A stretch of DNA of 60,188 nucleotides from an uncultured virus (IMG/VR IMGVR_UViG_3300042569_001770). Taxonomy: Duplodnaviria; Heunggongvirae; Uroviricota; Caudoviricetes. The notes beneath the pieces are model-generated. The model was not told the DNA's origin. It ran no database searches and was given only the letters and a program-made list of their open reading frames with translations. Location of the stretch: IMG/VR virus record IMGVR_UViG_3300042569_001770. One strand, written 5' to 3'. Both the position numbers and the translations under genes were made by a program. This document shows positions 46,928 through 60,043 of this stretch, piece by piece (within the stretch, counting starts at the first letter, position 1; each line of letters begins with the position of its first letter).

Positions 46928-47176
46928 ATGACACATACAATCAAATCATTACGCCAAAGCGGTTATAAGGTTCGAGTCATGCACTCTCGCGTGTATATCA
47001 AACCCAAATATCAACTTCAAGCCAAAGGAGGATTAACAGAGATTGAGGTAACCACACCTGATCGTTCTCAAACAGTTAAAGGGTCAGCAAAATGTTCCGA
47101 TGTCGATTGCTTTAGTCGTAAAGTTGGAAATGCTATTGCTCTTGGGCGCGCTCTCAAAATGCTAAATATTGAATAA
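46928..47176 (+). CDS. Hypothetical phage protein
   Basis: G.AKCS..D.FSRKVG..IALGRA pattern. Confidence 0.65.
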   Translation: MTHTIKSLRQSGYKVRVMHSRVYIKPKYQLQAKGGLTEIEVTTPDRSQTVKGSAKCSDVDCFSRKVGNAIALGRALKMLNIE

Positions 47177-47177
47177 T

Positions 47178-47372
47178 ATGATAACCCAAATCAAAGAAAA
47201 CAAACCCGAAGACAAAGACAAAGTTCTCATTGGGGAAATTGAAAATCTACCTGATCTAATAGATGGTGGCACTCCAGATCAAGAAGAATCGTCGTTGGAA
47301 GAAGTGAAAGTCAAGTCTTGGAAAGATTCAAAGGTTAGATGCCTTATCCAAGAAACTAAGGATGTCCCATAA
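47178..47372 (+). CDS. Hypothetical protein
   Basis: ATG directly after previous stop. Confidence 0.5.
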   Translation: MITQIKENKPEDKDKVLIGEIENLPDLIDGGTPDQEESSLEEVKVKSWKDSKVRCLIQETKDVP

Positions 47373-47381
47373 AATTTAGTT

Positions 47382-47466
47382 GGAAGGGTGGCAGAGCGGT
47401 CTATTGCAACGGTTTACTAAACCGTCGAGGGTTAAACCTCCGAGAGTTCGAATCTCTCCTCTTCCG
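47382..47466 (+). tRNA. tRNA-Ser, anticodon ACT
   Basis: Acceptor GGAAGGG/CTCTTCC, G73, anticodon arm ACGGT-TTACTAA-ACCGT, long variable arm, T arm GAGAG-TTCGAAT-CTCTC; no encoded CCA. Confidence 0.9.
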
Positions 47467-47531
47467 ATTTTTTTAGAGAAATAAGCATTGCTAATATTTA
47501 AAAAAGATATTATAATTTTGTTAGAATTTAC

Positions 47532-47613
47532 ACACCTGTATCACCACCGCCTTCTAAGCGGTCTTTAACCGTGTAACTGGAGTATGTGCGTTCGAGTCGC
47601 ACCAGGTGTACCA
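47532..47613 (+). tRNA. Atypical tRNA-like RNA, anticodon TCT (Arg), lacking a normal D arm
   Basis: Acceptor ACACCTG/CAGGTGT-A-CCA, ACCGC-CTTCTAA-GCGGT, T arm GTGCG-TTCGAGT-CGCAC. Confidence 0.75.
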
Positions 47614-47624
47614 CTTTATCATTA

Positions 47625-47783
47625 ATGCAATCTATTAAACCAATATCAAACTGGATGAGTCCATCTGATTATAGAGATAGATGGCAACAATTAAAAGAAT
47701 ACAGAGAGACTCTTAAAAAATATGGACAATCAAACAACAAAAAACAAAACAGAGACAATGATAGAAGTAGATCCTCGCATTAA
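47625..47783 (+). CDS. Small hypothetical protein
   Basis: ATG after tRNA; overlaps next ORF. Confidence 0.4.
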   Translation: MQSIKPISNWMSPSDYRDRWQQLKEYRETLKKYGQSNNKKQNRDNDRSRSSH

Positions 47784-47985
47784 AAGAATAATAAAATTTA
47801 GTCCTGGTCTATTTGGATGTTTAATTGCATTGGTGCTAATAGCTGCGATATTTATACCTTATCTCCCTATTTGGGCCGTAAACACTCTATTTGGAACTTC
47901 TATCGCATATTCTTTCCCAAATTGGTGTGCTTCTGCAATCTTATTGGCTTTATTCGGAAATGTAAAAGCTAGCGTTTCCCGATAA
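47722..47985 (+). CDS. Small membrane protein
   Basis: IWAVNTLFGTSIAYSF.NW hydrophobic pattern. Confidence 0.65.
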   Translation: MDNQTTKNKTETMIEVDPRIKRIIKFSPGLFGCLIALVLIAAIFIPYLPIWAVNTLFGTSIAYSFPNWCASAILLALFGNVKASVSR

Positions 47986-48005
47986 AAAATAGTAATATAT
48001 TAATC

Positions 48006-48239
48006 ATGAAAAAACAAATCACCTCTATCTTTACTTCTCATTACGAAGCACTCATGACTCTCACAGACTTTGAAAGTCTCAAGAACAAAGTCTTGGAGAT
48101 TGTAAAAGAATCCAGGATCAATGAAATGGATAAGCGTAAAATTGTATTTGAGGTCGAAAACCGTATCTCCAATCTGTCGCGTCTTCAAATGTATGTAACC
48201 AACTCTATGTTGAAGTATCAGGGCCAAGGCACACGATAA
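48006..48239 (+). CDS. Hypothetical protein
   Basis: Promoter copy upstream. Confidence 0.65.
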   Translation: MKKQITSIFTSHYEALMTLTDFESLKNKVLEIVKESRINEMDKRKIVFEVENRISNLSRLQMYVTNSMLKYQGQGTR

Positions 48240-48240
48240 T

Positions 48241-48504
48241 ATGCTTATCACAGACTTTATAGAAAAACATTATTCCCCAGCTTCTTTGGAGCAATATAAA
48301 GAATGTTTGAATCAATTTGATTGGTTTCATTATATGTCAGATTCTTATTATCCGTCCTTGGATGCTGTATCAAAAGTATTATATACTCTGGCGGTGAGGA
48401 ACGGTGTAGAGTGGCAAAAGGCCTATAATGAAATTCATGAATTGAATTTTAATACAGAATCTTTTCATTCCAACGGCGGGTATAAAAAGCCTTTTGATGT
48501 ATGA
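48241..48504 (+). CDS. Hypothetical protein
   Basis: 87 aa ORF, FDW..YMSD motif. Confidence 0.6.
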   Translation: MLITDFIEKHYSPASLEQYKECLNQFDWFHYMSDSYYPSLDAVSKVLYTLAVRNGVEWQKAYNEIHELNFNTESFHSNGGYKKPFDV

Positions 48505-49067
48505 TTTTTCCCAATAATATCAGGCAAGACATAGAGGAAGTTCTGTATCACGAATCAACTATTTTATCCAGATTGGATGAATTGGCTTCTGGTATTACAT
48601 CAGAATATGCCGACAAAGATCTTACAGTTATATCTATCCTTAACGGTAGTTTCATATTCATGGCAGACCTTTTAAGACGGATTAATCTGCCGTTGCAATT
48701 GGATACTTTGAGTGTTTCAAGCTATCACGGAATGCATTCCTCGGGAGAAATTAATTTCCGTCAACATCAAATTGCAGACGTAAAAGGTCGTCATGTTTTG
48801 CTGCTGGATGACATTTTAGATTCGGGGTTGACTCTAAAAACCATTAAAGAAAAGATATCTAATGAGGGTGCCCTTTCGGTCAAATGTGGCGTCCTTTTTA
48901 GCAAAAAGGTGACCAGGAAAATAGACATTGAGGCTGAGTATGTTGGCTTTGAAATCGACAATAAATTCATTGTTGGCTATGGTTTGGACTACAATGAACA
49001 ATACAGAAACCTGCCTTTTGTGGGTGTTTTGAAGCCAGAGGCCATTAAAAAATGGCAAAAAAAGTGA
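48501..49067 (+). CDS. hpt: Hypoxanthine phosphoribosyltransferase
   Basis: ILNGSFIFMADLLR, VSSY, GRHVLLLDDILDSGLTL, FIVGYGLDYNEQYRNLP. Confidence 0.95.
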   Translation: MIFPNNIRQDIEEVLYHESTILSRLDELASGITSEYADKDLTVISILNGSFIFMADLLRRINLPLQLDTLSVSSYHGMHSSGEINFRQHQIADVKGRHVLLLDDILDSGLTLKTIKEKISNEGALSVKCGVLFSKKVTRKIDIEAEYVGFEIDNKFIVGYGLDYNEQYRNLPFVGVLKPEAIKKWQKK

Positions 49068-49120
49068 TTCAAAATCGCAAAAAAGTGACTCAAAATCTCA
49101 AAAAAATGGTTTAAAATACA
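49058..49120 (+). repeat. 21 bp direct repeat x3 (third copy degenerate) before an AT-rich tract
   Basis: AAAAAAGTGATTCAAAATCGC / AAAAAAGTGACTCAAAATCTC / AAAAAAATGGTTTAAAATACA. Confidence 0.7.
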
Positions 49121-49256
49121 CTTTTTTTGTTTTTAAATTTACAATATTACATTTTACATTTATAAGTTAACCATTTATAATTTATTGATTTATTTTACAA
49201 ATATAGCATTTTAAATTTAAAAAAATAATAAAATATACATATTTCGCAAATAAGAA

Positions 49257-49285
49257 GTGCAATTTCCCTGTAAATAATGTATATT
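49257..49285 (+). promoter_or_regulatory. Candidate promoter of the ncRNA array
   Basis: GTGCAA-17 nt (TTTCCCTGTAAATAATG)-TATATT, with the TTTCCC spacer of the early promoters and an embedded TAAATA. Confidence 0.55.
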
Positions 49286-49296
49286 AGTTTTATTAG

Positions 49297-50091
49297 ATAG
49301 TTGGTTCCCGATGAGCCAATAGGACTGAAAATACTCGGTCGAACACAAAATCGGAAATTGATATTTGACATTTTGATTTAGTAGACCCGCCATGCCTCTG
49401 CTTGCAACAAGTAGTTTCTGAAGTACAAAGAAATGAAAGCGAGACCCATGCACACTTTGGCGGGTATTTCTTTTACCAAGCGCAGATGCTCGCAAAGCTC
49501 TACCGCGATGGGCGACAATGCAATGTTTCCGGAAACAACATTTAACCCATAGGGAACTTCAGAAGAAGTCTTGGTAATAATTCTAAAACTGGAATGTTAG
49601 CTTAGAGGCAGCTATCATCTAAGGAGTGGGACTGGACGTGGAGAACTGGTAATTCGTATGGACACAATTCAGATAAGCCATACATCCTATTTATAGGTAC
49701 GGAGATGACCGTGAATTGCGTTTCACAGGATGGAGAAATTCATAACCCCTTTGGCGTAAAAGCACACCAGTTAGATTTGGTCGGCGGCTGAGAGAGCATG
49801 CGTCTGGTTGATCTCTGAGGGCTTCAATAATGCCGAGTATACCCGGCCACCTTTTATGGAGAATCTTTAATTAGATTACGGAGCTAACCGAATGCGTGTA
49901 GAATAAAGTCCTTCGGTCAAATATGACTATCTACCTCCATATTAAATTTTGATAAGTCGGGTGGGAATAGTGTGCTGTTCTTAAAAAGCTCACCACTGCG
50001 GACTTATCAACAGCACCGAGTAGGCAGGTTTAAATGAGTATCCAGCTTCCAGCGGGTTAAAAACCCGGTAGCCAATGCGGACTCAGCTGTT
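49297..50091 (+). ncRNA. Array of eight stem-closed structured RNA modules (or one ~800 nt multidomain RNA)
   Basis: No credible ORF, raised GC; modules at ~49301-49354, 49385-49465, 49473-49577, 49582-49775, 49778-49849, 49855-49941, 49949-50010, 50011-50089, then a T-tract. Confidence 0.8.
49582..49775 (+). ncRNA. 23S rRNA H43/H44 (uL11-binding, GTPase-associated centre)-like RNA with 126 nt insert
   Basis: ACTGGAATGTTAGCTTAGAGGCAGCTATCATCTAAGGAGT...GCGTAAAAGCACACCAGT aligns ungapped to 23S nt 1051-1108 (from memory) with compensatory changes. Confidence 0.8.
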
Positions 50092-50131
50092 TTTATTTGC
50101 GTTTCCCCTAAAAATGTTATAAATTCTATAC

Positions 50132-50299
50132 ATGAAAATTAACCCATATAAATTAGGTATGAACTTTTATATTATCCTTATAGTATCGGTGGTTGTATTC
50201 ATTGGTTGCAAAACGTTTGAAAAACACGAAGACGAACGTCGCTTTAAAAAAGACGTCGAATCTTTCTTTCAGACACCAGACCTTAGCAAGATCAAATAA
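50132..50299 (+). CDS. Small membrane/lipoprotein-like protein (55 aa)
   Basis: Hydrophobic stretch ending FIGC; promoter copy upstream. Confidence 0.55.
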   Translation: MKINPYKLGMNFYIILIVSVVVFIGCKTFEKHEDERRFKKDVESFFQTPDLSKIK

Positions 50300-50342
50300 A
50301 TTCGTTGAGTTTCCCCATTAAATCTATTATTATATTTCCATA

Positions 50343-50594
50343 ATGAGAACTGTAACATCCCATCAATACCAACAAACTAAACTCAAAGCACTCTTCGATC
50401 TAATCTGTGATGAAGAGAATTGGAAGAACCCAATCCATTGTGTAGTTCCTTACTATGCTCTTTCTAAATTTAGCGAAGCATGTAGTCACTTCACAGGAGG
50501 ATGTCTGGTGGCTACGAAGTCTCTTGACGGGGTCAAGAACATGGATATGGTCGAGTGTAAGTCAGATGGCTACTATGTCAACATAGGAGCCTAG
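50343..50594 (+). CDS. Hypothetical protein
   Basis: Promoter repeat upstream; NWKNPI motif. Confidence 0.7.
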   Translation: MRTVTSHQYQQTKLKALFDLICDEENWKNPIHCVVPYYALSKFSEACSHFTGGCLVATKSLDGVKNMDMVECKSDGYYVNIGA

Positions 50595-51130
50595 TGTACG
50601 AAGAAATATACTTCTTCTTCGTATGGTAAAACATCTACTTTTTTACCGTATTCTTTGGCCAACAGATTAGCCAGCAAGGTATACAAAGAGATTTTAGATT
50701 GCTGGTCGGCTCCAGAAGTAAAAGATATATTATCCCCAACCTGAATCTTCTCTGTCAATATGCCTATAACAGTTTTCAATATCAATCGAGCATTCCTAGC
50801 AATGGCACCTCCTTTAGAAGAGGTTTCGGTACCAAATGCTCTTGATTCAAAATCTATCCACCAATAAGGTTCCTGTTTTATATGATTGACATGCTCGTGA
50901 GCTACATCTGCCAAGGCACTCTCCACGCCGTAAGGATCTTTAATATATTCAGCATTTACATCGTATGTGTCATTTTTCTTTTTTAGGTCAGCACTTACAT
51001 TTCCAGTAGTATCATCATAAGCAAAAGAGGTACGCCAAATGTTTGGGGCTATTTGTTTCCAGACAACCGAAAAGGGTATACTCGGTTTTTTGAAATCAAA
51101 CTTCTCAAAGAAAAATTGTTTAAAATCCAT
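50591..51130 (-). CDS. Late protein with capsid-targeting-like leader, inverted in the early region
   Basis: MDFKQFFFE; TAAATA upstream on minus strand. Confidence 0.7.
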   Translation of the reverse strand: MDFKQFFFEKFDFKKPSIPFSVVWKQIAPNIWRTSFAYDDTTGNVSADLKKKNDTYDVNAEYIKDPYGVESALADVAHEHVNHIKQEPYWWIDFESRAFGTETSSKGGAIARNARLILKTVIGILTEKIQVGDNISFTSGADQQSKISLYTLLANLLAKEYGKKVDVLPYEEEVYFFVH

Positions 51131-51177
51131 AAAAATATTTATGGATTTTCCCTATAAAAATCACTAATATAAACACA

Positions 51178-51420
51178 ATGAAAGCAATCAACGCTCGAGA
51201 TATCAAATGGGTTAAAGGAAAAGGTTATGGTATGGCAGAACGTCTTTTCGGGAGCTGGCAAACACCAAACACTTTTAAAGTACTCTCCCCCAAATCAAAT
51301 ACTACAAAAACATTTATCTTGGACAAAAATGCTCCGGGATATGAAGATGGGTGGGACGGAGAATTTAAGATGTTTGTATCTACTTGTGGAGCCATCAAAT
51401 TAATTGTATCTCACGAATAA
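51178..51420 (+). CDS. Hypothetical protein
   Basis: Promoter copy upstream. Confidence 0.65.
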   Translation: MKAINARDIKWVKGKGYGMAERLFGSWQTPNTFKVLSPKSNTTKTFILDKNAPGYEDGWDGEFKMFVSTCGAIKLIVSHE

Positions 51421-51425
51421 ACATT

Positions 51426-51746
51426 ATGAAAAAATATTACATTGACGGAAAAGAAGTGTCGGTTCTAGAAAAGATCCAGCACAAACTCAAACAACTCAAC
51501 GAAGCATTAGAACTTGTAGAGGAGATATCAGACCGATGTGCTTGGGCGGATGACTTTGCCAATTACGGATCCATTCGAGAGGTACTTGATCCAGTCTATT
51601 CTGCAGCAGAGCATGCAAGAGATGAGATTGACGATCAGATAAATGAAATTGAAAGCCAGATTGAAGAAATGAAAGAGAAGAAGCTCGATGCTGAGGCAGA
51701 GGTTGAACAAGAATTTGCTTGCAACATTGAGTATTGTTTAAATTAA
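51426..51746 (+). CDS. Hypothetical coiled-coil protein
   Basis: Start moved to ATG 51426. Confidence 0.65.
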   Translation: MKKYYIDGKEVSVLEKIQHKLKQLNEALELVEEISDRCAWADDFANYGSIREVLDPVYSAAEHARDEIDDQINEIESQIEEMKEKKLDAEAEVEQEFACNIEYCLN

Positions 51747-51788
51747 ACAAAAATTGATTTTTTCGTTTAAATAATATATTATATCAAT

Positions 51789-52181
51789 ATGAAAAACCCC
51801 AAACCTACAGTTACAGTGTATAAAGAAACTGACACCCCTATCATTCCCGAAGTTCCTAAAGAAACCGAAGTCCCTAAAGTAACCATATCAAAAGATACTT
51901 CAATAACTAACGGAACCTGTCTACGCGGGCATGTATCAGCAACATATGATGCTTTGGTTGATGCGTTAGGAGAACCTATTACTGGACGCAGTGGAGACGG
52001 AAAGACTACCTGTGAATGGATTTTAAAATTTGATTGTGGTTCTATTGCAACCATTTATGACTGGAAAATGACAACTACTCCAATGAAAGAATATGAATGG
52101 CATATCGGAGGTACCGGAATTGATGTAGTACGCAAGGTCGGAGATTTTTTAAATTTGCCTGTTGATCGTGTTCAATTTTAA
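51789..52181 (+). CDS. Hypothetical phage protein
   Basis: GT.L.G.V.ATY..LV..LGEP...DGKT..EW...TIYDWK...WHIGG pattern. Confidence 0.7.
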   Translation: MKNPKPTVTVYKETDTPIIPEVPKETEVPKVTISKDTSITNGTCLRGHVSATYDALVDALGEPITGRSGDGKTTCEWILKFDCGSIATIYDWKMTTTPMKEYEWHIGGTGIDVVRKVGDFLNLPVDRVQF

Positions 52182-52240
52182 ATCTTTTCTTTCTTGAGTT
52201 TCCACATTAAATTTGCTACTATTATAGCAACATAAAACAA

Positions 52241-52759
52241 ATGGATCCAAGAAAAAATCAAAAGGTATCAATGAACCGCCAAGCCATCTCTTCTCCTTTC
52301 TTTTCTATGAGAGGAACACAAGTCAAATGGCCTACTATAAGAAAAGCATATATGGATGATGCTAATGTGGAGGTTCTTAAAAATTATGTAACCTCCAAAG
52401 GCAGATCCATCGTATTCCTGGACGGAATGTATCTCACCAAACTTAATCGATATGCCCATAAGCCACCAGAAGAGAGAGCAGTGTTCTGGGAGTTCATGTG
52501 TAAGGATAAAGAGATTAAGGGAGGCATTTTTCTTCTTTGTTGGTTGGGTAATTTCCATAATGGTTGTATCTTTCATGCAGCTCCACAATTTCCCCAAGCC
52601 CAATGTTGGTATGAGGCATTGGGGCAAAAAGAAGCGGATCTCTTTTTCGAGAAACATTCTTTTAAAATCTACAAAGAAGTAGTATCTATTCTTCATAATG
52701 GAGGTCCTATTATAGACGAAGAGGTTAAAGAATTTGTAGAAAACGGAAGCAAGGTATAA
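52241..52759 (+). CDS. Hypothetical protein
   Basis: Promoter copy at 52194. Confidence 0.65.
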   Translation: MDPRKNQKVSMNRQAISSPFFSMRGTQVKWPTIRKAYMDDANVEVLKNYVTSKGRSIVFLDGMYLTKLNRYAHKPPEERAVFWEFMCKDKEIKGGIFLLCWLGNFHNGCIFHAAPQFPQAQCWYEALGQKEADLFFEKHSFKIYKEVVSILHNGGPIIDEEVKEFVENGSKV

Positions 52760-52877
52760 TATGGAAATCGCATTACTTTTTATGTTGGCAGTCGGAGTAT
52801 TGGTATCGGCTTTCTCATCGCAATAACATAAAAATTCTTCTGGAATTTTTGTTTCAATGAATTAAAATATTATTGTA

Positions 52878-53054
52878 ATGAGATACACCAATGCTACAGA
52901 ACAACCATTTCCTACCTGTTTGCCACCAGAGGCATACATAAGAATTTGTAAAACCATTGAACCGGGTCATCAACCCAAATTTTCCAGTTCGGTGTATCCA
53001 ACTATAAAAGAGCCAAACAAACGTAAAAGGATTATTAAAAAAGATCGAGATTGA
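52878..53054 (+). CDS. Small hypothetical protein (58 aa)
   Basis: Hand translation; stop supplied by the TTGA of the next promoter. Confidence 0.5.
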   Translation: MRYTNATEQPFPTCLPPEAYIRICKTIEPGHQPKFSSSVYPTIKEPNKRKRIIKKDRD

Positions 53055-53088
53055 CATTCCTCATTAAATCCATTACTATAGATACATA

Positions 53089-53445
53089 ATGAAAACAATT
53101 ATTAAACACGTGTTGGAGATTGATCAAGTAGAAGCTATCAAAAGATTGATTAAGAATTTCATGGAGGGGATGCAAGACAACATGGGTGACATTGAATATT
53201 TCACTATGGATCTAAATCGCCTTCAAGAAATTCTCAAGGAGATCAATACTACAGGTCGTATGGAATATCTTTTTAAATACGGATATACTAGTATGGTATT
53301 ATCAGACAAAGATATGGAAGAGGTTGATAATTATTTTCGACGCACCGAAGGCGGAACAGATAAATCTGAAGAGTTGGAGATTCATATTATGGATAACCTA
53401 GGTATTAAATTAGAATCAATACCACAACGTTATATATCGTATTAA
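53089..53445 (+). CDS. Hypothetical protein
   Basis: Promoter repeat upstream. Confidence 0.7.
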   Translation: MKTIIKHVLEIDQVEAIKRLIKNFMEGMQDNMGDIEYFTMDLNRLQEILKEINTTGRMEYLFKYGYTSMVLSDKDMEEVDNYFRRTEGGTDKSEELEIHIMDNLGIKLESIPQRYISY

Positions 53446-53465
53446 GGTTGTAAATATAAAAAAAT

Positions 53466-53702
53466 ATGTCTACACTACCTACAATGGCAGTTGATACCTT
53501 TACTCAGGGCAAACTATTTGAAGACGAAGGATTTGCGATCTATGCAAAAACTATAGAAGGAAATTGGGTATCGATTAACGGGCAACCAGGAGAGATTACA
53601 GAAATTAAATGGACTGTTACCGATCCGAATAAAATTAAAAAATTAGAAAGTATCGCTAAAACTTTTAAAGGACCTGCAAGATATTTCGGTAAAGAGGAAT
53701 AG
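53466..53702 (+). CDS. Hypothetical late protein
   Basis: TAAATA upstream. Confidence 0.6.
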   Translation: MSTLPTMAVDTFTQGKLFEDEGFAIYAKTIEGNWVSINGQPGEITEIKWTVTDPNKIKKLESIAKTFKGPARYFGKEE

Positions 53703-53727
53703 TTGGGGGTAAATATTAATACAATCT

Positions 53728-53967
53728 ATGAAAATCAAAGACGACATCCTATTAGAAGAAGCTTATACCGAAATCCTTTTAAAGGAGAACGAAGGCATGC
53801 ACACTATTTCCTCCATCCCCAATAATATTAAACAAGATCTATTAAATTCTTTAGAGAAATATCTCAAAGAAGGTGAACACCAGGACGGAGAAGGTTTTTA
53901 TGGCAATTACAAAACAGCAGGGGAGTTAGCAGAAGACTTTGCAAGACATTTAAATAACTTAGCATAA
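53728..53967 (+). CDS. Late protein with MKxKDDILLE leader
   Basis: TAAATA upstream; leader shared with 58721 and 33738. Confidence 0.7.
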   Translation: MKIKDDILLEEAYTEILLKENEGMHTISSIPNNIKQDLLNSLEKYLKEGEHQDGEGFYGNYKTAGELAEDFARHLNNLA

Positions 53968-53988
53968 TTGTAAACTAACATTTTAAAC

Positions 53989-54025
53989 AAAAAACACCTA
54001 CAAGAAATTGTAGGTGTTTTTTTTT
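53989..54025 (+). terminator. Rho-independent terminator
   Basis: CACCTACAA-GAAA-TTGTAGGTG followed by T9. Confidence 0.9.
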
Positions 54026-54066
54026 GCCTGGAGTTTCCTCATTAAATCTATTACTATAGATACATA

Positions 54067-54228
54067 ATGAAAAAATACGAGGTGATCGCAGAGATGGGCA
54101 GGAACCATCACATGCTTCGAGTAATAGAAGCAGAGAATGAGAAGCAGGCCCGAAAGATCATGTGGGAGAAATATATGGATGACTCTCAAAAAGATAATTG
54201 TGAAGACATAGAAGTGTTTGAAATTTAA
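54067..54228 (+). CDS. Small hypothetical protein (53 aa)
   Basis: Promoter repeat upstream; MKKYEVIAEMGR... Confidence 0.65.
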   Translation: MKKYEVIAEMGRNHHMLRVIEAENEKQARKIMWEKYMDDSQKDNCEDIEVFEI

Positions 54229-54268
54229 ACTTGAGCTTCCCCATAAAATCCGTTACTATAGATACATG

Positions 54269-54529
54269 ATGAAAAACACCAAGCAAATCAAAGAAGTACT
54301 GGGAGATATCTTTGATACCTTCTCCAGCAAAGACGGAGTGTATACTATCAAAAAATCCTACTACTGGGGCGTCACAAAAGACGGAAGCCATTTGGGTGAT
54401 AGGGTTAAAGAAAAATTCCCCAATGCTTTTATTCTTGATTGGGGAAACCATTGGCACTCTTTTGTAGGCGGTGCCAAATCGGGAAGCGCTCAAGATTCTT
54501 ACTGGTACTGCAAATTCAAATTGGTTTAA
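54269..54529 (+). CDS. Hypothetical protein
   Basis: Start moved to the ATG after the promoter repeat. Confidence 0.7.
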   Translation: MKNTKQIKEVLGDIFDTFSSKDGVYTIKKSYYWGVTKDGSHLGDRVKEKFPNAFILDWGNHWHSFVGGAKSGSAQDSYWYCKFKLV

Positions 54530-54531
54530 AA

Positions 54532-54753
54532 ATGAAATCCGAAAAAGAAAAAATAGAATACCGCCGCCGAGTAAAGCGTTTAGCAGAAGAACTCACATAC
54601 AAAGCAGATATCTACGGACCTATCGGCCGCATTTATTCCTTCAAGGCACCCTGGAAAGTCGATAACGATGGCAAACTCTTTCACGGAGACACAGAATATG
54701 ATCCCAAAGATTTGTATGATGGCCACGGAAGATATCTTGAGCTTCCCCGATAA
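54532..54753 (+). CDS. Hypothetical protein
   Basis: ATG 2 nt after previous stop. Confidence 0.55.
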   Translation: MKSEKEKIEYRRRVKRLAEELTYKADIYGPIGRIYSFKAPWKVDNDGKLFHGDTEYDPKDLYDGHGRYLELPR

Positions 54754-54774
54754 ACCTGCTATTATATTAACATA

Positions 54775-54945
54775 ATGAAAGCAACACTCACACGCGCACA
54801 AAAAGAACAACTCCTGGAACTTATCCATCAAACCATCATTCCGGCTATCCATGAAGACGTGATAGGGGATTATGATGAAGAAGATGAAGATAAAGCAAAG
54901 GATTTGTTTTACGAAGCCGTCCAATTCATCAGCAACAATATCTAA
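54775..54945 (+). CDS. Small acidic protein (56 aa)
   Basis: Promoter repeat upstream. Confidence 0.65.
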   Translation: MKATLTRAQKEQLLELIHQTIIPAIHEDVIGDYDEEDEDKAKDLFYEAVQFISNNI

Positions 54946-54951
54946 AAAAAT

Positions 54952-55197
54952 ATGAAAGCCCAATTGACACACACCGAAGATGCCGAAGTTAGACTTTATA
55001 CCGTAGTGTATAACAAGAGCACCTACTACGTGACTTCTATAATCTATCAAGATAGGGATGCTATGGAAGTGATTAGGGATAGTGATGGCAATTATGTAAA
55101 TGATTTTGACCTCTGCTTTGAGATCCTGGAGTTGGTATATGAGGAAGATGATAACGAATTTCAAGACCAACTAAAAACCATCAAACTTTCTGCCTAA
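54952..55197 (+). CDS. Hypothetical acidic protein
   Basis: 81 aa ORF. Confidence 0.6.
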   Translation: MKAQLTHTEDAEVRLYTVVYNKSTYYVTSIIYQDRDAMEVIRDSDGNYVNDFDLCFEILELVYEEDDNEFQDQLKTIKLSA

Positions 55198-55201
55198 ATC
55201 C

Positions 55202-55387
55202 ATGAACGTCAATCATCTTATCCATAACCTCACCCAACTCAAAAGCCGAGGAATAGAAGATATCCCCATTATAGACGACCACTTCAATGAGTATGACGGA
55301 GAAATCCGTTTAGGTAAGGGATCTATAGCCTGGCTGTATATCACAGCATCTACAGATGAAGATGATATCGAGGAGGATGAAGAATGA
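55202..55387 (+). CDS. Hypothetical acidic protein
   Basis: 61 aa ORF. Confidence 0.55.
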   Translation: MNVNHLIHNLTQLKSRGIEDIPIIDDHFNEYDGEIRLGKGSIAWLYITASTDEDDIEEDEE

Positions 55388-55528
55388 AAATGTCCTTTCG
55401 TGGTAAGGTTTGGATTCTGGGCTTATTGTTTAGCATTGGAGTATGGGCTATCATAGCATGGATTCTTTCTATGATCTTCCAATAATCTCCTGGAGTTTCC
55501 CCATAAAATTCTATACTATAGATACATA

Positions 55529-56014
55529 ATGAAAAACGTCACCAAATCAGTATCCGTTGAAGTCAATGAAGAGGTCTGCGTTCTGGAGTACCACACCAAT
55601 CCAGAACCTTATGATAGTCGCCAGAAGCATACTATTGTGTATATTAGTAATCCATTTGATCCGGAAGATTTTGGATTTGATGGACGGCCAGAATATTCCC
55701 GCAAAGGAGAAAATCCTGAATTAGATAAGGCCTGGAGGAAGTACAATAAGATTGAAGTTAATCTTCAGCGAGGCATTATTGATCAAGCAGTCAAGCATGG
55801 AATGATTGAAGAAGATTTGGCTAAGGAGCTTAAATGGTCTCGAAAGGCAGGATGCTCTTGCGGATGTTCTCCGGGTTGGACGACTCGGGATTATCGCCGG
55901 CAATCCATCTGGCTGACATTGGTATCCCCATCTAAGGAACAGGAAAAGAAGGAACGGCACAGGAGTTATGCAGCCGTGCAGGAAGCAAAAACTCTTTCCT
56001 CAATGGTGATTTGA
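55529..56014 (+). CDS. Hypothetical phage protein (WSRKAGCSCGCSPG motif)
   Basis: Promoter repeat upstream. Confidence 0.7.
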   Translation: MKNVTKSVSVEVNEEVCVLEYHTNPEPYDSRQKHTIVYISNPFDPEDFGFDGRPEYSRKGENPELDKAWRKYNKIEVNLQRGIIDQAVKHGMIEEDLAKELKWSRKAGCSCGCSPGWTTRDYRRQSIWLTLVSPSKEQEKKERHRSYAAVQEAKTLSSMVI

Positions 56015-56053
56015 TTTGATCTTCCCCATAAAAGATAGTAATATATTTTCATA

Positions 56054-56209
56054 ATGAATACATTAGAAAATCAATACACCCAGATGGAGCAACTCTCTCG
56101 GGAAGACATCCGTGAACTTGAAGAATGGCTTGCCATACAAGATAGTCTCTCAGATGACAAGTATGGAATCGTTTGTGCCCGAGACACCGAATGGGACTGG
56201 AATAATTAA
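56054..56209 (+). CDS. Small acidic protein (51 aa)
   Basis: Promoter repeat upstream; hand translation. Confidence 0.6.
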   Translation: MNTLENQYTQMEQLSREDIRELEEWLAIQDSLSDDKYGIVCARDTEWDWNN

Positions 56210-56213
56210 AATT

Positions 56214-56363
56214 ATGAAATACACCCAAGACGAAAAAGTAGTAGATGCTATAGTAGCCTGGATGGTTTTACTTTGGATTCTATTCGGGGCTTGTGTACTT
56301 GGTTTGGCTCTAACCATCATCAAAGCAATCCTTTTGTACTTTGGAATTGAAAACAACCTTTAA
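56214..56363 (+). CDS. Small membrane protein
   Basis: Hydrophobic; start moved to ATG 56214. Confidence 0.55.
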   Translation: MKYTQDEKVVDAIVAWMVLLWILFGACVLGLALTIIKAILLYFGIENNL

Positions 56364-56403
56364 GATTGATCTTCCCCATAAAATCCATTACTATAGATCC
56401 ATA

Positions 56404-56688
56404 ATGATTACTACACGTTTCACCAAAGACAACCTTCGCAAATCCGGCCAATACCTTATGTATCAAGCTCCTATGGTTCTAGGTCAGCAACCCCGATTCG
56501 TAGCCCGCTTCAAGCATAAAGGCCCAGTGACGATGGCTCAATTCAAAAAGGAATTGATCAAGAATCATACCGTAGAATACTATTTCGGGGCTTTGGAAAC
56601 CCAATGCCAAGCTCCTCTGAATATTCTCCGAAACAACAATCCTTCTTGGTATGAGGAACTGTTGACGGAATGGAAAAATAAATATTGA
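56404..56688 (+). CDS. Hypothetical phage protein
   Basis: Promoter repeat upstream; FVARFK motif. Confidence 0.7.
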   Translation: MITTRFTKDNLRKSGQYLMYQAPMVLGQQPRFVARFKHKGPVTMAQFKKELIKNHTVEYYFGALETQCQAPLNILRNNNPSWYEELLTEWKNKY

Positions 56689-56722
56689 GTTTCCCCATAA
56701 AAAATAGTAATATAATAACATA

Positions 56723-56926
56723 ATGAAAACAACATTCAATCCTGGAGATTACATTGTCACTCAAGACGGGTTTCGTGGTTATGTCGTAAGCAAATTAGAT
56801 TACTGCAACAACATGTACGATGTTAGGTTGCCCTGCGGATACACCATACGTGGCGGGGAAGAACTGGAGTTGGATATGTTGATGTATCAAGAGATGTCAA
56901 ACCTACTCGACGTATCTAAAGAATAA
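56723..56926 (+). CDS. Small SH3-like hypothetical protein
   Basis: F.PGD.IVT.DG..G.V...YDV pattern; promoter repeat upstream. Confidence 0.6.
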   Translation: MKTTFNPGDYIVTQDGFRGYVVSKLDYCNNMYDVRLPCGYTIRGGEELELDMLMYQEMSNLLDVSKE

Positions 56927-56932
56927 AAATAT

Positions 56933-57121
56933 ATGAGAAAAAAAGATCGCGTCATTGAAGCCACAATAGTCCTGGATATCAGGTTTTTTATTGATGAAAC
57001 CACCGAACCAGAAGATGTACTCAACAGATCCAATCTGTATGTTAATTCAGATCACGGCATGATCACCGAGATGAAGTTTGTTCATTCCGCTATAACCAAA
57101 GACGAAAAGGTTAAAATATGA
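56933..57121 (+). CDS. Hypothetical protein
   Basis: 62 aa ORF. Confidence 0.55.
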   Translation: MRKKDRVIEATIVLDIRFFIDETTEPEDVLNRSNLYVNSDHGMITEMKFVHSAITKDEKVKI

Positions 57122-57266
57122 TATTCCGATCCCGCGTCTTTCAACACGCATTCTGCCTAGTTTGCAATCCCAAAGGATGGAAGTTTTATCTCAAGGGAAT
57201 CTATAGAGAGTTGACCTGGCAATAGTTGTTGATCTTCCCAATAAAAAATAATAATATAATAACATC

Positions 57267-57557
57267 ATGAAAGACCTACAAATTGATACATTGAAGTGCG
57301 TTGGAGTTTCTCAAATCATTCCCGAAGATTGGGCAGACTGGATCTGGTGTCCTCTAAGTGAGGATGCTCCTTTCTCTTGGGGCGGCAATAATCGTAGTCT
57401 CGTTGATGCCGTTTCTTTTAGAGACCATATGGAAAACGTTTTGTCTTATCAAGACGATGAAGACCTGAAGAACCTAATCCAAGAACATCTCCCTGCTGTT
57501 TTGGATATTATCAACTATCTTGAAGCAGGACATATTTACATTGATTTAGAAAAATGA
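57267..57557 (+). CDS. Hypothetical protein
   Basis: Promoter repeat upstream. Confidence 0.7.
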   Translation: MKDLQIDTLKCVGVSQIIPEDWADWIWCPLSEDAPFSWGGNNRSLVDAVSFRDHMENVLSYQDDEDLKNLIQEHLPAVLDIINYLEAGHIYIDLEK

Positions 57558-57844
57558 ATGATCAACAAATCAACATCGCAATTGCGGAGGCGTGTGGGTG
57601 GGAAGAAGAATCATTTGGCCCATCGTGGTGCGAGTCGACAACTAAAATCCCCGACTATTGCAACGACCTCAATGCAATGCACAAAGCATGGTTGTCACTT
57701 TCAGATAAGGACAAATTTGTATGTGACAAAGAGTTAATGCGCGTTCTGGTGGCATCGAAAGATGGACCATATTGGATGACAAACTCAACCGCTCGCCAAC
57801 GCGCAGAGGCTTTTCTTAAAGCAATTGGAAAGTGGAAAGACTAA
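57554..57844 (+). CDS. NinX/ABA-sandwich-like phage protein
   Basis: INIAIAEACGW...PDYCNDLNAMH...ARQRAEAFL. Confidence 0.55.
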   Translation: MNDQQINIAIAEACGWEEESFGPSWCESTTKIPDYCNDLNAMHKAWLSLSDKDKFVCDKELMRVLVASKDGPYWMTNSTARQRAEAFLKAIGKWKD

Positions 57845-57850
57845 TATAAC

Positions 57851-58066
57851 ATGAAACATATCCTCCTAGCAATTCTTACCGGAATACTTCTGTCAGCATG
57901 TACCACCATCAAGCAAGTCAATACAGACTTCAAGAACTTCTGCAATACAGTACAGCACCACAATACTCCAAAGGATGTCTGGCCCAAAGAAGGTTGGCAT
58001 TCTACCTGTGAGTATTGTATACCCACAGTCAAATGCCGCTGGTACAAATGCCCAAATAAAGATTGA
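57851..58066 (+). CDS. Putative Cys-rich lipoprotein
   Basis: Lipobox LLSAC. Confidence 0.65.
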   Translation: MKHILLAILTGILLSACTTIKQVNTDFKNFCNTVQHHNTPKDVWPKEGWHSTCEYCIPTVKCRWYKCPNKD

Positions 58067-58100
58067 GATTCCCCATTAAATCTATTACTATAATAACATA

Positions 58101-58448
58101 ATGATTACATCATCCACACTCCACACTATCAAGACCACCGAAGCCCAACTCAAGGCAAACCTCTATACTCGATATTCCGAGGTCCTCTCTGATGCCTTGA
58201 GTGATGATCTGGACCTGTTTGAAAGCGAGGTCCATGACTTTAATCACACCATTCTAAAAATTAACCAAGTTGGATTCCGCCGTACCTTTGCAGACGGATT
58301 TACTATGATGCTTCTGGATGCCGAAGACTTTAAGTTTGTAGAAAAATGGTTCGAGCAAGGAAAAAATAAAACCGAGAACCTCCAGATAGTCATCACCAAA
58401 GGCAATGGAGATGTAGAGATTCTCTCCCACGAAGATCTTAGTTATTGA
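58101..58448 (+). CDS. Hypothetical protein
   Basis: Promoter repeat upstream. Confidence 0.7.
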   Translation: MITSSTLHTIKTTEAQLKANLYTRYSEVLSDALSDDLDLFESEVHDFNHTILKINQVGFRRTFADGFTMMLLDAEDFKFVEKWFEQGKNKTENLQIVITKGNGDVEILSHEDLSY

Positions 58449-58482
58449 TCTTCCCCATAAAAGATAGTAATATAATAACATA

Positions 58483-58704
58483 ATGAATAAGCACACCATT
58501 CAAGTCAAAAACAAATCCAATGGAGTAATCCTTAATGTTATTAAACGAGTCCTTCGCTCTGAGGCTATTGGTAACTTCTGTCCTATCTTCTGTACCTATC
58601 TGGGAAAACAATATCTGGTCAAGTCTGAAGAGGGTGATCTCTCCGATCCCTTTCGCCGTCAAGAATCCTATGCTCAGTCCTTCTATATCGAAGTAGTAGC
58701 CTAA
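58483..58704 (+). CDS. Hypothetical protein
   Basis: Promoter repeat upstream. Confidence 0.7.
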   Translation: MNKHTIQVKNKSNGVILNVIKRVLRSEAIGNFCPIFCTYLGKQYLVKSEEGDLSDPFRRQESYAQSFYIEVVA

Positions 58705-58720
58705 GGAACTAAATAATATC

Positions 58721-59008
58721 ATGAAAACAAAAGATGATATCCTTCTTGAACAAGCTTATATGAAGGTAGTAAAAGAAAATCAAGAACCTCTTTACTTTAA
58801 CTTTGGAGAAAACATCCCTTACAATATAGGATACTCCAACAAAACCTTTAATGTCCGAGGTAAGGATGTATTGATAAAGTCTGAGAAAGATCAAGATGAA
58901 GATAGTGTTTGGTATTACCTCTCCCTGGTAGACCCCGAAACCAAAGAAAGAGTCTTTAATGATATAGGGGAAGAAGAGATCAAGCAATTGATGAAGAGGG
59001 TTAATTAA
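58721..59008 (+). CDS. Late protein with MKxKDDILLE leader
   Basis: TAAATA 4 nt before ATG. Confidence 0.7.
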   Translation: MKTKDDILLEQAYMKVVKENQEPLYFNFGENIPYNIGYSNKTFNVRGKDVLIKSEKDQDEDSVWYYLSLVDPETKERVFNDIGEEEIKQLMKRVN

Positions 59009-59057
59009 AAAAATAGATCTTGAGTTTCCCCATTAAATCTATTACTATAGATACATA

Positions 59058-59201
59058 ATGAAACACTACGAGATCAAAGCTTACTCAGCCTGGCAAAAAC
59101 CTCAGTCCTATATCACCAATACAGAATCAGAAAGAGACGAACTTGTACTGGTCCTCAAGCAAGAGCAGTATAAAGTAGAATGGGAAGAGATAGAAGAATG
59201 A
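59058..59201 (+). CDS. Small hypothetical protein (47 aa)
   Basis: Promoter repeat upstream. Confidence 0.6.
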   Translation: MKHYEIKAYSAWQKPQSYITNTESERDELVLVLKQEQYKVEWEEIEE

Positions 59202-59217
59202 AAGACGAATGGAAGAA

Positions 59218-59291
59218 AGAGTAGGTTAAAAGGTAGGAAAAGTAGGTTGTTGGAAAAGTAGGTTGAAAAGGTAGGTTGAAAAAGTAGATTG
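59218..59291 (+). repeat. Degenerate short repeat (AAAA)GTAGGTTG x6, intergenic
   Basis: GTAGG at 59221, 59233, 59242, 59258, 59271 and GTAGA at 59284. Confidence 0.75.
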
Positions 59292-59473
59292 TCGATTAAC
59301 CTCACGTTTTTTCAAAAATTTCCCAAAAAAAAATTTTAAATCATTTTAAGGGGAAAAACCCGCCTTCTTTTCCTGGTTTTCCCCAACACTCTCTTTAAAG
59401 ATACCTCTTGACATTTCCCGATAATCATAGTATCATATTACCTGAACCATAAAACAAAGAAGGACACTAATCC

Positions 59474-60043
59474 GTGGCACCAAAGAAACTACTATCACCA
59501 GACAAACCAGAAGACCAATTTTTTAATATTCCCGGTTGGGTGAAGTATTACGGGGAAAACAAGAAGCTTCCTCATAATGCTATCACCTGTAAAGAATGCC
59601 GGCGTACAGCCACTTCTATGTTCGGATCTAATCTGAAGAATACTCTTCCTAAGTTTAGTAATGACATAGAAGCCCTCCTCAAGGGATTTGTATGTAGGCC
59701 CTGTAGAACCCTCAAGACGGCTGATGAGAAAGCCAAGATGCCCAAGGAAGAGAAGCCTAAGGTGGTTAAAGAGGTAGTACCTATGACTTGGCAGGAGATG
59801 GAAGACTATAAGGAAAGGATTAGGGCTGAGATTCCTAAGATTGACCTTACCCGGAGGCCTACTCCTATCACTCCTAATATGAAGAGTGAAGTAGAACACA
59901 TGACAGCTACTACTTGTATCCGTCCTGATATCCATCTGGACAACGGACGTTACTGTAATGGTTGCCCCTGGATTAAAAATTGCATCTGTAAGATCAAAAA
60001 AATTTCTGAAAAAGAGATTGCAGTTTCCAGGAAACGACGTTAA
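59474..60043 (+). CDS. Cys-rich (zinc-binding) basic protein
   Basis: CKEC, CRPC, C...CNGC...CIC; TTGACA promoter at 59408. Confidence 0.65.
   Translation: MAPKKLLSPDKPEDQFFNIPGWVKYYGENKKLPHNAITCKECRRTATSMFGSNLKNTLPKFSNDIEALLKGFVCRPCRTLKTADEKAKMPKEEKPKVVKEVVPMTWQEMEDYKERIRAEIPKIDLTRRPTPITPNMKSEVEHMTATTCIRPDIHLDNGRYCNGCPWIKNCICKIKKISEKEIAVSRKRR

What the first reader, a model, noticed from the sequence alone, without database searches (positions are those of the whole stretch)
49582..49775. Phage RNA that mimics the 23S rRNA uL11-binding GTPase-associated centre (H43/H44)
Seen: 49588-49627 (ACTGGAATGTTAGCTTAGAGGCAGCTATCATCTAAGGAGT) and 49754-49771 (GCGTAAAAGCACACCAGT) are joined by a closing stem and separated by a 126 nt insert. 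Known: together they align without gaps to the 58 nt domain of E. coli 23S nt 1051-1108 as I recall it (about 43/58 identical). Differences are largely compensatory: 1053-1106 C-G to U-A, 1054-1105 A-U to G-C, 1062-1076 G-C to A-U, tertiary 1082-1086 U-A to C-G, 1090-1101 to U-A. The A1067 and A1095 loops (uL11, thiostrepton and translation-factor contacts) are kept. No flanking rRNA sequence is present. Inference: covariation means selection on the fold rather than a decaying captured fragment. It could be a decoy for uL11, translational GTPases, RelA/stringent response or rRNA-targeting defence toxins. I know of no described phage RNA like this.
Basis: partly seen in the sequence, partly recalled or inferred. 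Interest (0 to 1): 0.95.

Follow-up and report, generated by a model that had tools for sequence, protein, structure and literature searches.

The report
Phage RNA mimicking ribosomal GTPase centre
This phage, like well over a hundred others, carries a small non-coding RNA that copies the folded piece of ribosomal RNA where protein uL11 and the translation GTPases dock, and no such free-standing copy of a ribosome part was found described anywhere.

Summary
Window 49588-49627 plus 49754-49771 aligns without gaps to E. coli 23S nt 1051-1108 at 43 of 58 positions, and it is the only such site in the window. There is no flanking rRNA.

It belongs to a large RNA family that matches no Rfam model. 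I collected 88 distinct copies from viral contigs, cultured phages (GAP32, CBB, XacN1, pf16, Astolliot, Aeromonas 4_4572) and prophage-like regions in several bacterial phyla.

All copies keep a closing stem, H43, the junction and the H44 loop. All carry a variable 45-314 nt domain inserted after a fixed GAGU and before a fixed UUUG.

Covariation supports the closing stem, pair 1058-1080, tertiary pair 1082-1086 and the insert stem. The uL11 contact pair U1060-A1088 never varies. A model built only from phage copies finds the true 23S site.

The element lies in tRNA arrays, always on the tRNA strand. RNA-library contigs of relatives cover it; one closes on itself at its exact ends.

Function is untested. 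The most likely role is a decoy for a protein that recognises this ribosomal site.

The parts
49153..49181 (+). Promoter-like site (TTTACA, 17 nt spacer, TATAAT; 11 of 12) upstream of the block of non-coding RNAs.
   Evidence: The count of such sites in the region is not above shuffles, so this is weak on its own. The relative L032 has TTGACA-17-TATATT at the matching place (printout).
49587..49592 (+). Closing stem P1, 5' strand (23S nt 1050-1055). Pairs with 49767-49772.
   Evidence: All six P1 pairs covary in the family.
49594..49618 (+). H43 mimic (23S nt 1057-1081), including A1067 at 49604.
   Evidence: U1060, G1071, C1072 and A1077 are invariant or nearly so. Pair 1058-1080 covaries (UA 23, AU 9, GC 8).
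49619..49623 (+). Junction turn holding tertiary pair 1082-1086 (C-G here).
   Evidence: UA 19, CG 16, AU 3 among 42 members.
49624..49627 (+). GAGU (nt 1087-1090): lower H44 5' strand, with A1088, the partner of U1060.
   Evidence: G 59/59, A 59/59, G 58/59, U 59/59. The search pattern did not fix these positions.
49628..49749 (+). Variable inserted domain, 122 nt here. It is closed by GGG/CCC and holds a hairpin with a GAAA tetraloop at 49730-49743.
   Evidence: Inserts of 45-314 nt in 88 distinct elements. All four insert-stem pairs covary. The hairpin changes U-A to C-G in relatives. No similarity to rRNA.
49750..49753 (+). UUUG linker between the insert and upper H44.
   Evidence: Seen in the loci found through the 5' half alone; two of them have UUUA.
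49754..49766 (+). Upper H44 with its loop (nt 1091-1100; A1095 at 49758), then A1101, C1102, A1103.
   Evidence: A1095 is A in 55 of 58, although the search pattern left it free.
49767..49772 (+). Closing stem P1, 3' strand (nt 1104-1109).
49584..49772 (+). Extent of the discrete RNA unit, as seen in an RNA-library contig of a relative that closes on itself.
   Evidence: run X19, record 9 reads 49584-49772, then CTT, then 49584-49611.

Best explanation
The element is a gene for a discrete, trans-acting structured RNA of about 190 nt. It is transcribed with other structured RNA units, and with tRNAs in relatives, and is trimmed to a molecule whose two ends meet in a closing stem.

The RNA folds like the uL11-binding GTPase-associated centre (GAC) of 23S rRNA: H43, the junction with its tertiary pairs, and H44. 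A lineage-specific extra domain branches from H44.

It most likely works as a molecular decoy or sponge for a protein that normally reads this ribosomal surface. uL11 is the prime candidate. Titrating or borrowing uL11 would change how the infected cell's ribosomes signal, for example in RelA-dependent stringent control, or would recruit uL11 into a phage ribonucleoprotein.

Shown: the family, the fold-level conservation, the genomic setting and its presence in RNA libraries. Inferred: binding to uL11 and any consequence of it.
For: (1) Fold. 95% of cells pair against 74% in shuffles, and the covariation score is 0.549 against 0.143 (0 of 500 shuffles reach it). Double-sided changes occur in 6 of 6 P1 pairs, in pair 1058-1080, in tertiary pair 1082-1086 and in 4 of 4 insert-stem pairs.

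(2) The structural core is fixed even where the search pattern did not fix it: U1060 58/58, A1077 58/58, G1071 56/57, A1088 59/59. The exposed functional bases are also kept: A1067 46/57 and A1095 55/58.

(3) The U1060-A1088 pair is hydrogen-bonded by uL11 residues Gly130-Thr131 (passage of PMC2175356).

(4) Model R1, built from phage copies only, finds the true 23S site in E. coli (55.6 bits, E 2e-12), Acidithiobacillus and Flintibacter.

(5) It is independent of the host. The 23S sites of two hosts differ from the copy in their prophage-like regions.

(6) It is spread across phages of many phyla, which points to a universally conserved target.

(7) No protein gene is conserved beside it: 57 neighbouring ORFs share no family. 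The partner is therefore probably a host protein.

(8) Setting. 141 tRNA genes lie on the same strand and 0 on the opposite strand, and 28 of 68 elements have a tRNA within 100 nt.

(9) Contigs from four metatranscriptome runs of four studies cover the non-coding block. None covers the laid parts of the flanking ORFs.
Against: No binding experiment or structural model exists.

Every member has the insertion two nucleotides after A1088, next to the uL11 contact. It could block uL11 rather than tolerate it.

A plain uL11 sponge would not need an insert. Yet no insert-free member was seen in the sets that could have shown one (the 5'-half pattern and the BLAST search). Some insert subfamilies also keep their own motifs (13, 6 and 5 of 88).

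Positions 1096 and 1097 of the H44 loop are relaxed.

The RNA evidence comes from assembled contigs of relatives in RNA libraries. These can hold DNA, and no silent control stretch could be laid because the cap was one call.

Rfam's LSU model gives no local hit.
Confidence: 0.45

Rival explanations
1. Protective decoy. The RNA soaks up an enzyme that attacks this ribosomal site, such as a toxin of a host abortive-infection system or of a competitor, and so spares the ribosomes that the phage needs.
For: A toxin aimed at exactly this site exists. Tre23 ADP-ribosylates 23S H44 within bases 1095-1098 and blocks EF-G GTPase (abstract and passages of PMC8661411).

tRNA arrays are called a putative anti-defence system in the abstract and introduction of PMC12803027, and the element sits in such arrays.

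In this phage lineage the unit just upstream is an abiF RNA motif with no abiF gene nearby. That Rfam family is tied to an abortive-infection gene (my recollection of what the family is associated with), so this unit is a candidate second decoy.

RNA-repair genes are neighbours in some loci: RNA ligase, RlaP, a CCA-adding enzyme and a 2'-5' RNA ligase.
Against: No anti-phage defence that targets this ribosomal site is known to me. Tre23 is a secreted competition toxin, not a phage defence.

Positions 1096 and 1097, inside the mapped Tre23 target, are the least conserved part of the mimic.

A decoy must out-compete thousands of ribosomes.
Confidence: 0.22
2. Scaffold. The rRNA-like fold is only a compact, nuclease-resistant handle, possibly one that binds uL11. 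The variable inserted domain carries the lineage-specific activity.
For: The insert is always present and ranges from 45 to 314 nt.

Several insert subfamilies keep their own motifs across unrelated phages: CACCCC..GGUAAGG in 13 of 88, GACCCUUAGAG in 5 of 88, and a GRGGAAKMC hairpin in 6 of 88.

One metagenome contig carries two paralogues with different inserts side by side, and one MAG locus holds two elements.
Against: Some inserts are very short. The shortest whole elements are about 91 nt (L050 and L087).

No motif is common to all inserts.

The exposed bases A1067 and A1095, which are not needed for folding, are conserved.
Confidence: 0.2
3. Cis-acting r-protein operator, like the mRNA leaders that copy rRNA binding sites.
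For: Mimicry of an r-protein's rRNA site is the known principle of autogenous control (established knowledge, recalled).
Against: None of 57 neighbouring ORFs is a ribosomal protein.

The element lies between tRNA genes, for example between tRNA-Asn and tRNA-Pro in phage pf16.

It matches no Rfam leader family.
Confidence: 0.02
4. Not a functional RNA: a captured or mis-assembled scrap of host rRNA, or a phage attachment site.
For: Some phage records do hold real host 23S. Examples are L031 and the Paenibacillus phage Pd_22F record, which has a 1737-nt alignment to 23S.
Against: 38 of 39 viral loci carry only 32-37 nt identical to rRNA and then the family-specific insert.

The pairs covary.

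The element is present in complete genomes of cultured phages and differs from the host's own 23S.
Confidence: 0.01

Closest known systems
23S rRNA GTPase-associated centre (H43/H44, nt 1051-1108), the uL11 and thiostrepton site
   Same: Same helices, same junction, same covarying tertiary pair 1082-1086, and the same invariant U1060, G1071, C1072, A1077 and A1088. A1067 and A1095 are kept. The phage model finds the real site.
   Different: It stands alone, with no rRNA around it. H42 is replaced by a free closing stem. A 45-314 nt domain plus UUUG is inserted between 1090 and 1091. Position 1101 is A (58 of 59) instead of the U of E. coli. Positions 1096 and 1097 are relaxed.
rRNA-mimicking operators in ribosomal-protein mRNA leaders (for example the L10 leader, and the L1, S8 and S15 operators)
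   Same: A piece of non-ribosomal RNA copies an r-protein's rRNA binding site (recalled knowledge).
   Different: Those act in cis in the 5' UTR of r-protein operons of cells and copy only a partial site. This one is a separate small RNA in phage tRNA arrays that copies the whole 58-nt domain.
Phage RNA decoys of defence RNAs (the pseudo-ToxI of phage PhiTE, recalled)
   Same: A phage-encoded RNA imitates a cellular RNA to neutralise a host protein. In this lineage an abiF-motif RNA sits next to the mimic.
   Different: The molecule imitated here is ribosomal RNA, and no target protein is known.
Bacterial and phage Y RNAs with a tRNA-like module (YrlA, recalled), and viral tRNA-like structures
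   Same: Small RNAs with a closing stem and paired ends, carrying a module that imitates a translation RNA. Often found in phages.
   Different: They imitate tRNA, not rRNA. They match no model here.
GOLLD and ROOL, large ornate RNAs of phages near tRNA genes
   Same: Phage-borne, function unknown, sit within tRNA clusters (passages of PMC6582537; PMC12286853).
   Different: No match to their Rfam models. This element is much smaller, and I know of no rRNA-like domain reported in them.

Membership tests
Bacterial LSU rRNA (Rfam RF02541), domain H42-H44 | Lies inside a full 23S gene, with neighbouring rRNA domains on both sides. | tested here: not met
   Only 32-37 nt align to E. coli 23S in 34 viral loci. 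The window's flanks and insert score z below 2 against the rrnH operon. cmscan gives no LSU hit at E up to 10.
Bacterial LSU rRNA (Rfam RF02541), domain H42-H44 | The H43 and H44 pairs and tertiary pair 1082-1086 are kept. | tested here: met
   95% of cells paired, with covariation at 1058-1080 and 1082-1086. The structure itself is recalled from the published crystal structures (Conn 1999, Wimberly 1999), which I did not read here.
Bacterial LSU rRNA (Rfam RF02541), domain H42-H44 | H44 is continuous, with no insertion between 1090 and 1091. | tested here: not met
   Every one of 88 distinct elements has an insert of 45 nt or more. The search patterns could not have found insert-free copies, but those could. 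The insert-free hits from those were true 23S.
uL11-binding RNAs (a functional class) | The nucleotides read by the uL11 C-terminal domain (the U1060-A1088 pair) are present. | tested here: met
   U1060 58/58 and A1088 59/59. The contact is taken from a passage of PMC2175356.
uL11-binding RNAs (a functional class) | Binds uL11. | not testable with these tools
   No tool here models RNA with protein. This needs a gel-shift or filter-binding assay.
r-protein autoregulatory leaders (Rfam leader families) | Sits in the 5' UTR of a ribosomal-protein gene and matches a leader model. | tested here: not met
   0 of 57 neighbouring ORFs is an r-protein. No Rfam match.
Any Rfam 15 family (GOLLD, ROOL, Y RNA and the rest) | Reaches the family's gathering score. 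| tested here: not met
   Window: only 2 tRNAs. 20 family loci: only tRNAs and one tmRNA.
Circular RNA | A junction joining the 3' end to the 5' end that is present in RNA but absent from DNA. | tested here: inconclusive
   One RNA-library contig closes on itself. No tandem DNA copy was found in viral contigs, where 0 of 9 pattern hits were tandem. Metagenome contigs gave one hit, a pair of unlike paralogues. Contigs cannot tell a circle from a repeat, and no raw reads were available.

The most novel reading that the evidence does not exclude
Phages carry operons of processed, end-joined (circular) decoy RNAs. In this lineage a mimic of the abiF defence RNA sits beside a full three-dimensional mimic of the ribosome's GTPase-associated centre. 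The ribosome mimic captures uL11, or a still unknown defence or stress factor that reads this site. That would switch off RelA-type ribosome signalling or neutralise a ribosome-directed abortive-infection toxin. The variable domain in H44 would tune the RNA to the host.
Probability: 0.2. Interest if true: 0.95.

Novelty: categorically new. Interest (0 to 1): 0.9.

Why it matters
Viruses are commonly described as lacking ribosomal RNA. Here a whole functional rRNA domain has been copied, kept under selection for its fold, and spread through phages of many bacterial phyla, including cultured phages that can be tested at once.

If the RNA binds uL11 or another reader of this ribosomal site, it would be a new way for a virus to tamper with translation control or to parry ribosome-directed toxins. 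It would also give a meaning to some of the non-tRNA passengers of phage tRNA arrays.

It offers a natural experiment on which nucleotides of this domain are needed for folding and which for function. It also shows a natural site in H44 that tolerates large insertions. The possible circular form would add phage small RNAs to the short list of bacterial circular RNAs.

Tried and rejected
**Searches that found nothing**
- Rfam gathering scan of the window, E-value scan of 49000-50200 and gathering scan of 20 family loci. No family covers the element, and the LSU model gave no local hit.
- BLAST of window 49000-50200 against cultured phages found nothing, because this lineage has a variant H43. 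A typical member as query found the carriers.
- Ten literature searches found no description. The 'L11' mentions in the GOLLD/ROOL papers refer to loop names.

**Tools or files not available**
- For the 2023 catalogue of viral candidate RNAs (PMC10690425), six contig ids and a motif were absent from tables 3-6. The two archives with the alignments could not be read, and the id format is unknown. An unnamed computational prediction of this motif there cannot be excluded.

**Hypotheses tested and dropped**
- Tandem DNA copies as the cause of the self-closing RNA contig. None were found in viral contigs. Metagenome contigs gave one pair of unlike paralogues.
- Inserts as copies of other rRNA parts such as the sarcin-ricin loop. 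There was no similarity.
- A dedicated neighbouring protein. None was found, and there is no abiF gene near the window's element.
- The Paenibacillus phage Pd_22F hit is true 23S inside the record, so it is not a carrier. Vibrio phage 2.275.O has a clear 5' half but a diverged 3' half, so I left it uncounted.

**Uninformative results**
- Minimum-free-energy folding does not recover the fold, and its z-scores are unremarkable at 0.36 and -0.31. This is expected for a domain held by tertiary contacts.
- Parts of 49000-50250 had no cover in the RNA runs (49000-49130, 49166-49375, 49773-49944 and beyond 50004). With contigs of relatives, this says nothing about absence.
- One fold_alignment call failed through my own coordinate slip and I did not repeat it.

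Full report
**What the window is.** The window is part of a low-GC tailed phage (about 30-40% GC). It encodes a portal protein, major head protein, baseplate and tail-fibre proteins, and an RNA ligase at 38397-39476. The finding lies in a stretch of about 1 kb (49067-50132) that no ORF of 30 aa or more spans. ARAGORN and Rfam find two tRNA genes elsewhere in the window and nothing at the finding.

**The observation.** I fetched E. coli K-12 rrlH (L001) and read nt 1051-1108.
- Window 49588-49627 matches 29 of 40, and 49754-49771 matches 14 of 18, so 43 of 58 without gaps.
- The 5' part is the single best 40-mer match in the window on either strand; the next best is 23 of 40.
- A degenerate H43 pattern occurs once in the window and in none of 100 shuffles.
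- Nothing else in the non-coding stretch resembles the E. coli rrnH operon. The 5' half scores z 7.1; the insert and the neighbouring blocks score below 2.
- Rfam's LSU model does not report the site, even at E up to 10.

**It is a family.** The H43 pattern hit 39 viral contigs.
- Only one (L031) is a real 23S gene. The other 38 share 32-37 nt with 23S and then diverge after a common GAGT.
- Downstream, each has YTTTGGCGT, three variable letters, AGCACAY, and then the reverse complement of the bases before H43. One locus is cut by a contig end.
Flanks were fetched for 80. Of these, 51 have a recognisable 5' half by fuzzy matching, and 63 are found by the covariance model at E up to 0.001.
- In all I collected 88 distinct elements, with inserts of 45-314 nt.

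**Where it occurs.**
- In species-representative genomes, a mimic-specific pattern hit 24 loci. Eight are true 23S variants. Sixteen are the element, in bins or isolates labelled Ruminococcus, Flintibacter muris DSM 110149, Muribaculaceae, Bacteroidales, Nitrospira, Acidithiobacillus, deltaproteobacteria, Anaeroplasmataceae and others. Model R1 finds the element in all 16.
- Among cultured phages, R1 finds it in Cronobacter phage GAP32, Pectobacterium phage CBB, Aeromonas phage 4_4572, Xanthomonas phage XacN1, and Pseudomonas phages pf16 and Astolliot.
- BLAST also lists Serratia phage BF, several Erwinia pEa_SNUABM phages, Yersinia fHe-Yen9-04 and other phages.
- In these records the place is an unannotated gap.
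- Complete genomes hold one copy. Rare contigs hold two unlike copies.

**Structure.** I aligned 42 members with MAFFT, without reference to any structure (A1). I then counted the pairs of the GTPase-associated centre (GAC) fold as I recall it from the published crystal structures.
- 95.0% of 920 cells pair, against 74.0% in column shuffles. With the 3' partner slid by 1-3 columns, 32-53% pair.
- The covariation score is 0.549 against 0.143, reached by 0 of 500 shuffles.
- All six closing-stem pairs change on both sides.
- Pair 1058-1080 is UA 23, AU 9, GC 8.
- Tertiary pair 1082-1086 is UA 19, CG 16, AU 3.
- All four pairs at the base of the insert covary.
- The pairs G1087-C1102, U1090-A1101, G1091-C1100 and C1092-G1099 never vary. 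They say nothing for or against the structure, and several were fixed by the search patterns.

Conservation, measured in the set found through the 3' half, where the 5' half was free (59 distinct rows):

| Position | Count |
|---|---|
| U1060 | 58/58 |
| A1077 | 58/58 |
| G1071 | 56/57 |
| C1072 | 55/55 |
| A1084 | 57/57 |
| A1085 | 58/58 |
| G1087, A1088, U1090 | 59/59 each |
| G1089 | 58/59 |
| A1067 | 46/57 |
| A1095 | 55/58 |
| A1096 | 41/58 |
| 1061, 1097 | free |

U1061 is also variable in rRNA, as I recall.

**Reverse test.** Model R1 was built from the phage elements only. It scores the window's element at 103 bits. It also finds nt 1050-1111 of E. coli 23S (55.6 bits, E 2e-12) and the same site in two other bacteria, with the insert skipped. 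It finds no second copy in 47000-60188 of the window.

**Not a host capture.** Two genomes hold both the element and a 23S gene, and in both the two differ.
- Flintibacter has ...GCAGCCACTCATTAAAAGAGTGCG... in its 23S, but ...GCAGCCATCATCTAAGGAGT plus an insert in the prophage copy.
- Acidithiobacillus has AGG/CCT at 1057-59/1079-81 in its 23S, but AAG/CTT in the element.
- Family-specific traits are the insert, the UUUG linker and A1101.

**Setting.**
- Of 68 distinct elements with flanks, 38 have at least one tRNA gene in the fetched locus.
- All 141 tRNA genes are on the element's strand and none is opposite.
- 28 elements have a tRNA within 100 nt, often within 0-14 nt.
- In pf16 the element sits between tRNA-Asn and tRNA-Pro.
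- A Pfam scan of 57 neighbouring ORFs shows no shared partner. A few are RNA-repair or tRNA enzymes: RNA ligase, RlaP, a CCA-adding-type enzyme, and a 2'-5' RNA ligase beside the XacN1 copy.
- The closing stem is usually 5-15 pairs long, and I saw no common flanking motif in the printed flanks.

**The window's RNA block.**
- A promoter-like site lies at 49153-49181.
- Relatives differ by whole blocks whose edges coincide with the element's edges. L037 and a contig of run X19 join 49469 directly to 49584. L004 and a contig of run X16 join the element's 3' end to about 49942.
- The block 49376-49469 matches Rfam's abiF RNA motif, with a 50-nt loop insertion (26.9 bits, below the gathering score of 37). 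The relative L004 has the plain motif at 49.6 bits.
- No abiF-type gene is nearby.

**RNA evidence.** The phage DNA occurs in freshwater lake metagenomes. I laid contigs of four metatranscriptome runs from four studies on 49000-50250.
- Pieces at 90-99% likeness cover 49376-49772 and 49945-50004, plus one short piece at 49131-49165. None covers the parts of the flanking ORFs included in the stretch.
- X19 record 9 reads 49584-49772, then CTT, then 49584-49611. This is a path that closes on itself after about 194 nt, exactly at the element's ends.
- X15 record 4 does the same for the abiF-like unit (about 92 nt).
- X16 record 6 (depth 64) starts with sequencing-adapter letters at 49639. That hints at an RNA end inside the insert.
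- These are assembled contigs of relatives in libraries that can contain DNA. They show presence, not level, strand or true ends.
- Tandem DNA copies would give the same picture, so I looked for them. None of 9 pattern hits in viral contigs was tandem. The single hit in metagenome contigs is a pair of unlike paralogues.
- A circle, made in the cell or during library preparation from an RNA whose ends meet, is the simpler reading. It is not proven.

**How it may work.** The evidence shows an RNA under selection for the GAC fold, including its exposed loops. It is carried by phages of many phyla without a dedicated phage protein. That points to a universal host partner that reads this surface.
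- uL11 is the obvious candidate. Its C-terminal domain reads the U1060-A1088 pair (PMC2175356), and that pair is invariant here.
- A sponge for uL11 could relax RelA-dependent control. This is inference from the known relC phenotype, which I recall. It would be a plausible need for phages that flood the cell with tRNAs.
- The main rival is protection from enzymes that attack this site. One such toxin, Tre23, is known (PMC8661411). The tRNA-array setting and the abiF-like neighbour fit an anti-defence island.
- A third reading makes the rRNA-like fold a handle and the insert the active part.
- The insertion point, two nucleotides from A1088, is the main uncertainty for uL11 binding.

**Novelty.** The element matches no Rfam 15 family. 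Ten full-text searches of PMC and bioRxiv gave no description. The catalogue of viral candidate RNAs could only be partly checked. I therefore rate it a new kind of phage RNA, with the reservation that subscription journals were not searchable.

Noticed in passing
window 49376-49469 (stem 49386-49391 with 49459-49464): A unit matching Rfam's abiF RNA motif with a 50-nt insertion in its loop (26.9 bits, E 0.027). The relative L004 has the plain motif above the gathering score (49.6 bits against 37). No abiF-type gene is nearby. This is a candidate phage decoy of a defence-associated RNA. An RNA-library contig (X15 record 4) closes on itself over this unit, at about 92 nt.
   Followed up: partly
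window 49470-49583, 49776-49941, 49942-50100: Three further non-coding blocks, each with its own closing stem (for example TTACCAAG/CTTGGTAA and GATAAGTC/GACTTATC). Relatives gain or lose them as whole units (L037, L004, run contigs). The last block ends in a stem followed by a run of T. None matches Rfam or rRNA.
   Followed up: partly
window 49639: A contig of RNA run X16 (depth 64) begins with sequencing-adapter letters exactly here, inside the inserted domain. It then runs through the 3' half into the 49945 block. This may mark a frequent RNA end.
   Followed up: no
L202 (metagenome contig) 425-813; L165 281-627 and 1489-1669: Two different copies of the mimic, with unlike inserts, on one contig. 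In L202 they are about 15 nt apart.
   Followed up: partly
L047, L089, L109, L159, L160: Some members diverge right after GCAGCCA (about nt 1077-1078). This suggests a second insertion site at the H43 side of the junction.
   Followed up: no
L009 1845-2114: A tmRNA gene (80.6 bits) lies about 200 nt downstream of the mimic, and a tRNA lies 3 nt upstream, on the same strand.
   Followed up: no
L213 (Paenibacillus phage Pd_22F record, 83077-84912): This phage genome record contains a stretch that aligns to 23S rRNA over 1737 nt. It is probably host DNA in the assembly or in the particle.
   Followed up: partly
window 47381-47467 and 60106-60188: A tRNA-Ser with the unusual anticodon ACT, and a tRNA-Asn with a long extra arm.
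   Followed up: no
L171 (Acidithiobacillus chromosome, 1.83 Mb): Here the mimic has an insert of about 280 nt and a variant H44 loop. A tRNA array with near-identical repeated units follows it. This may be an integrated element rather than a phage.
   Followed up: no
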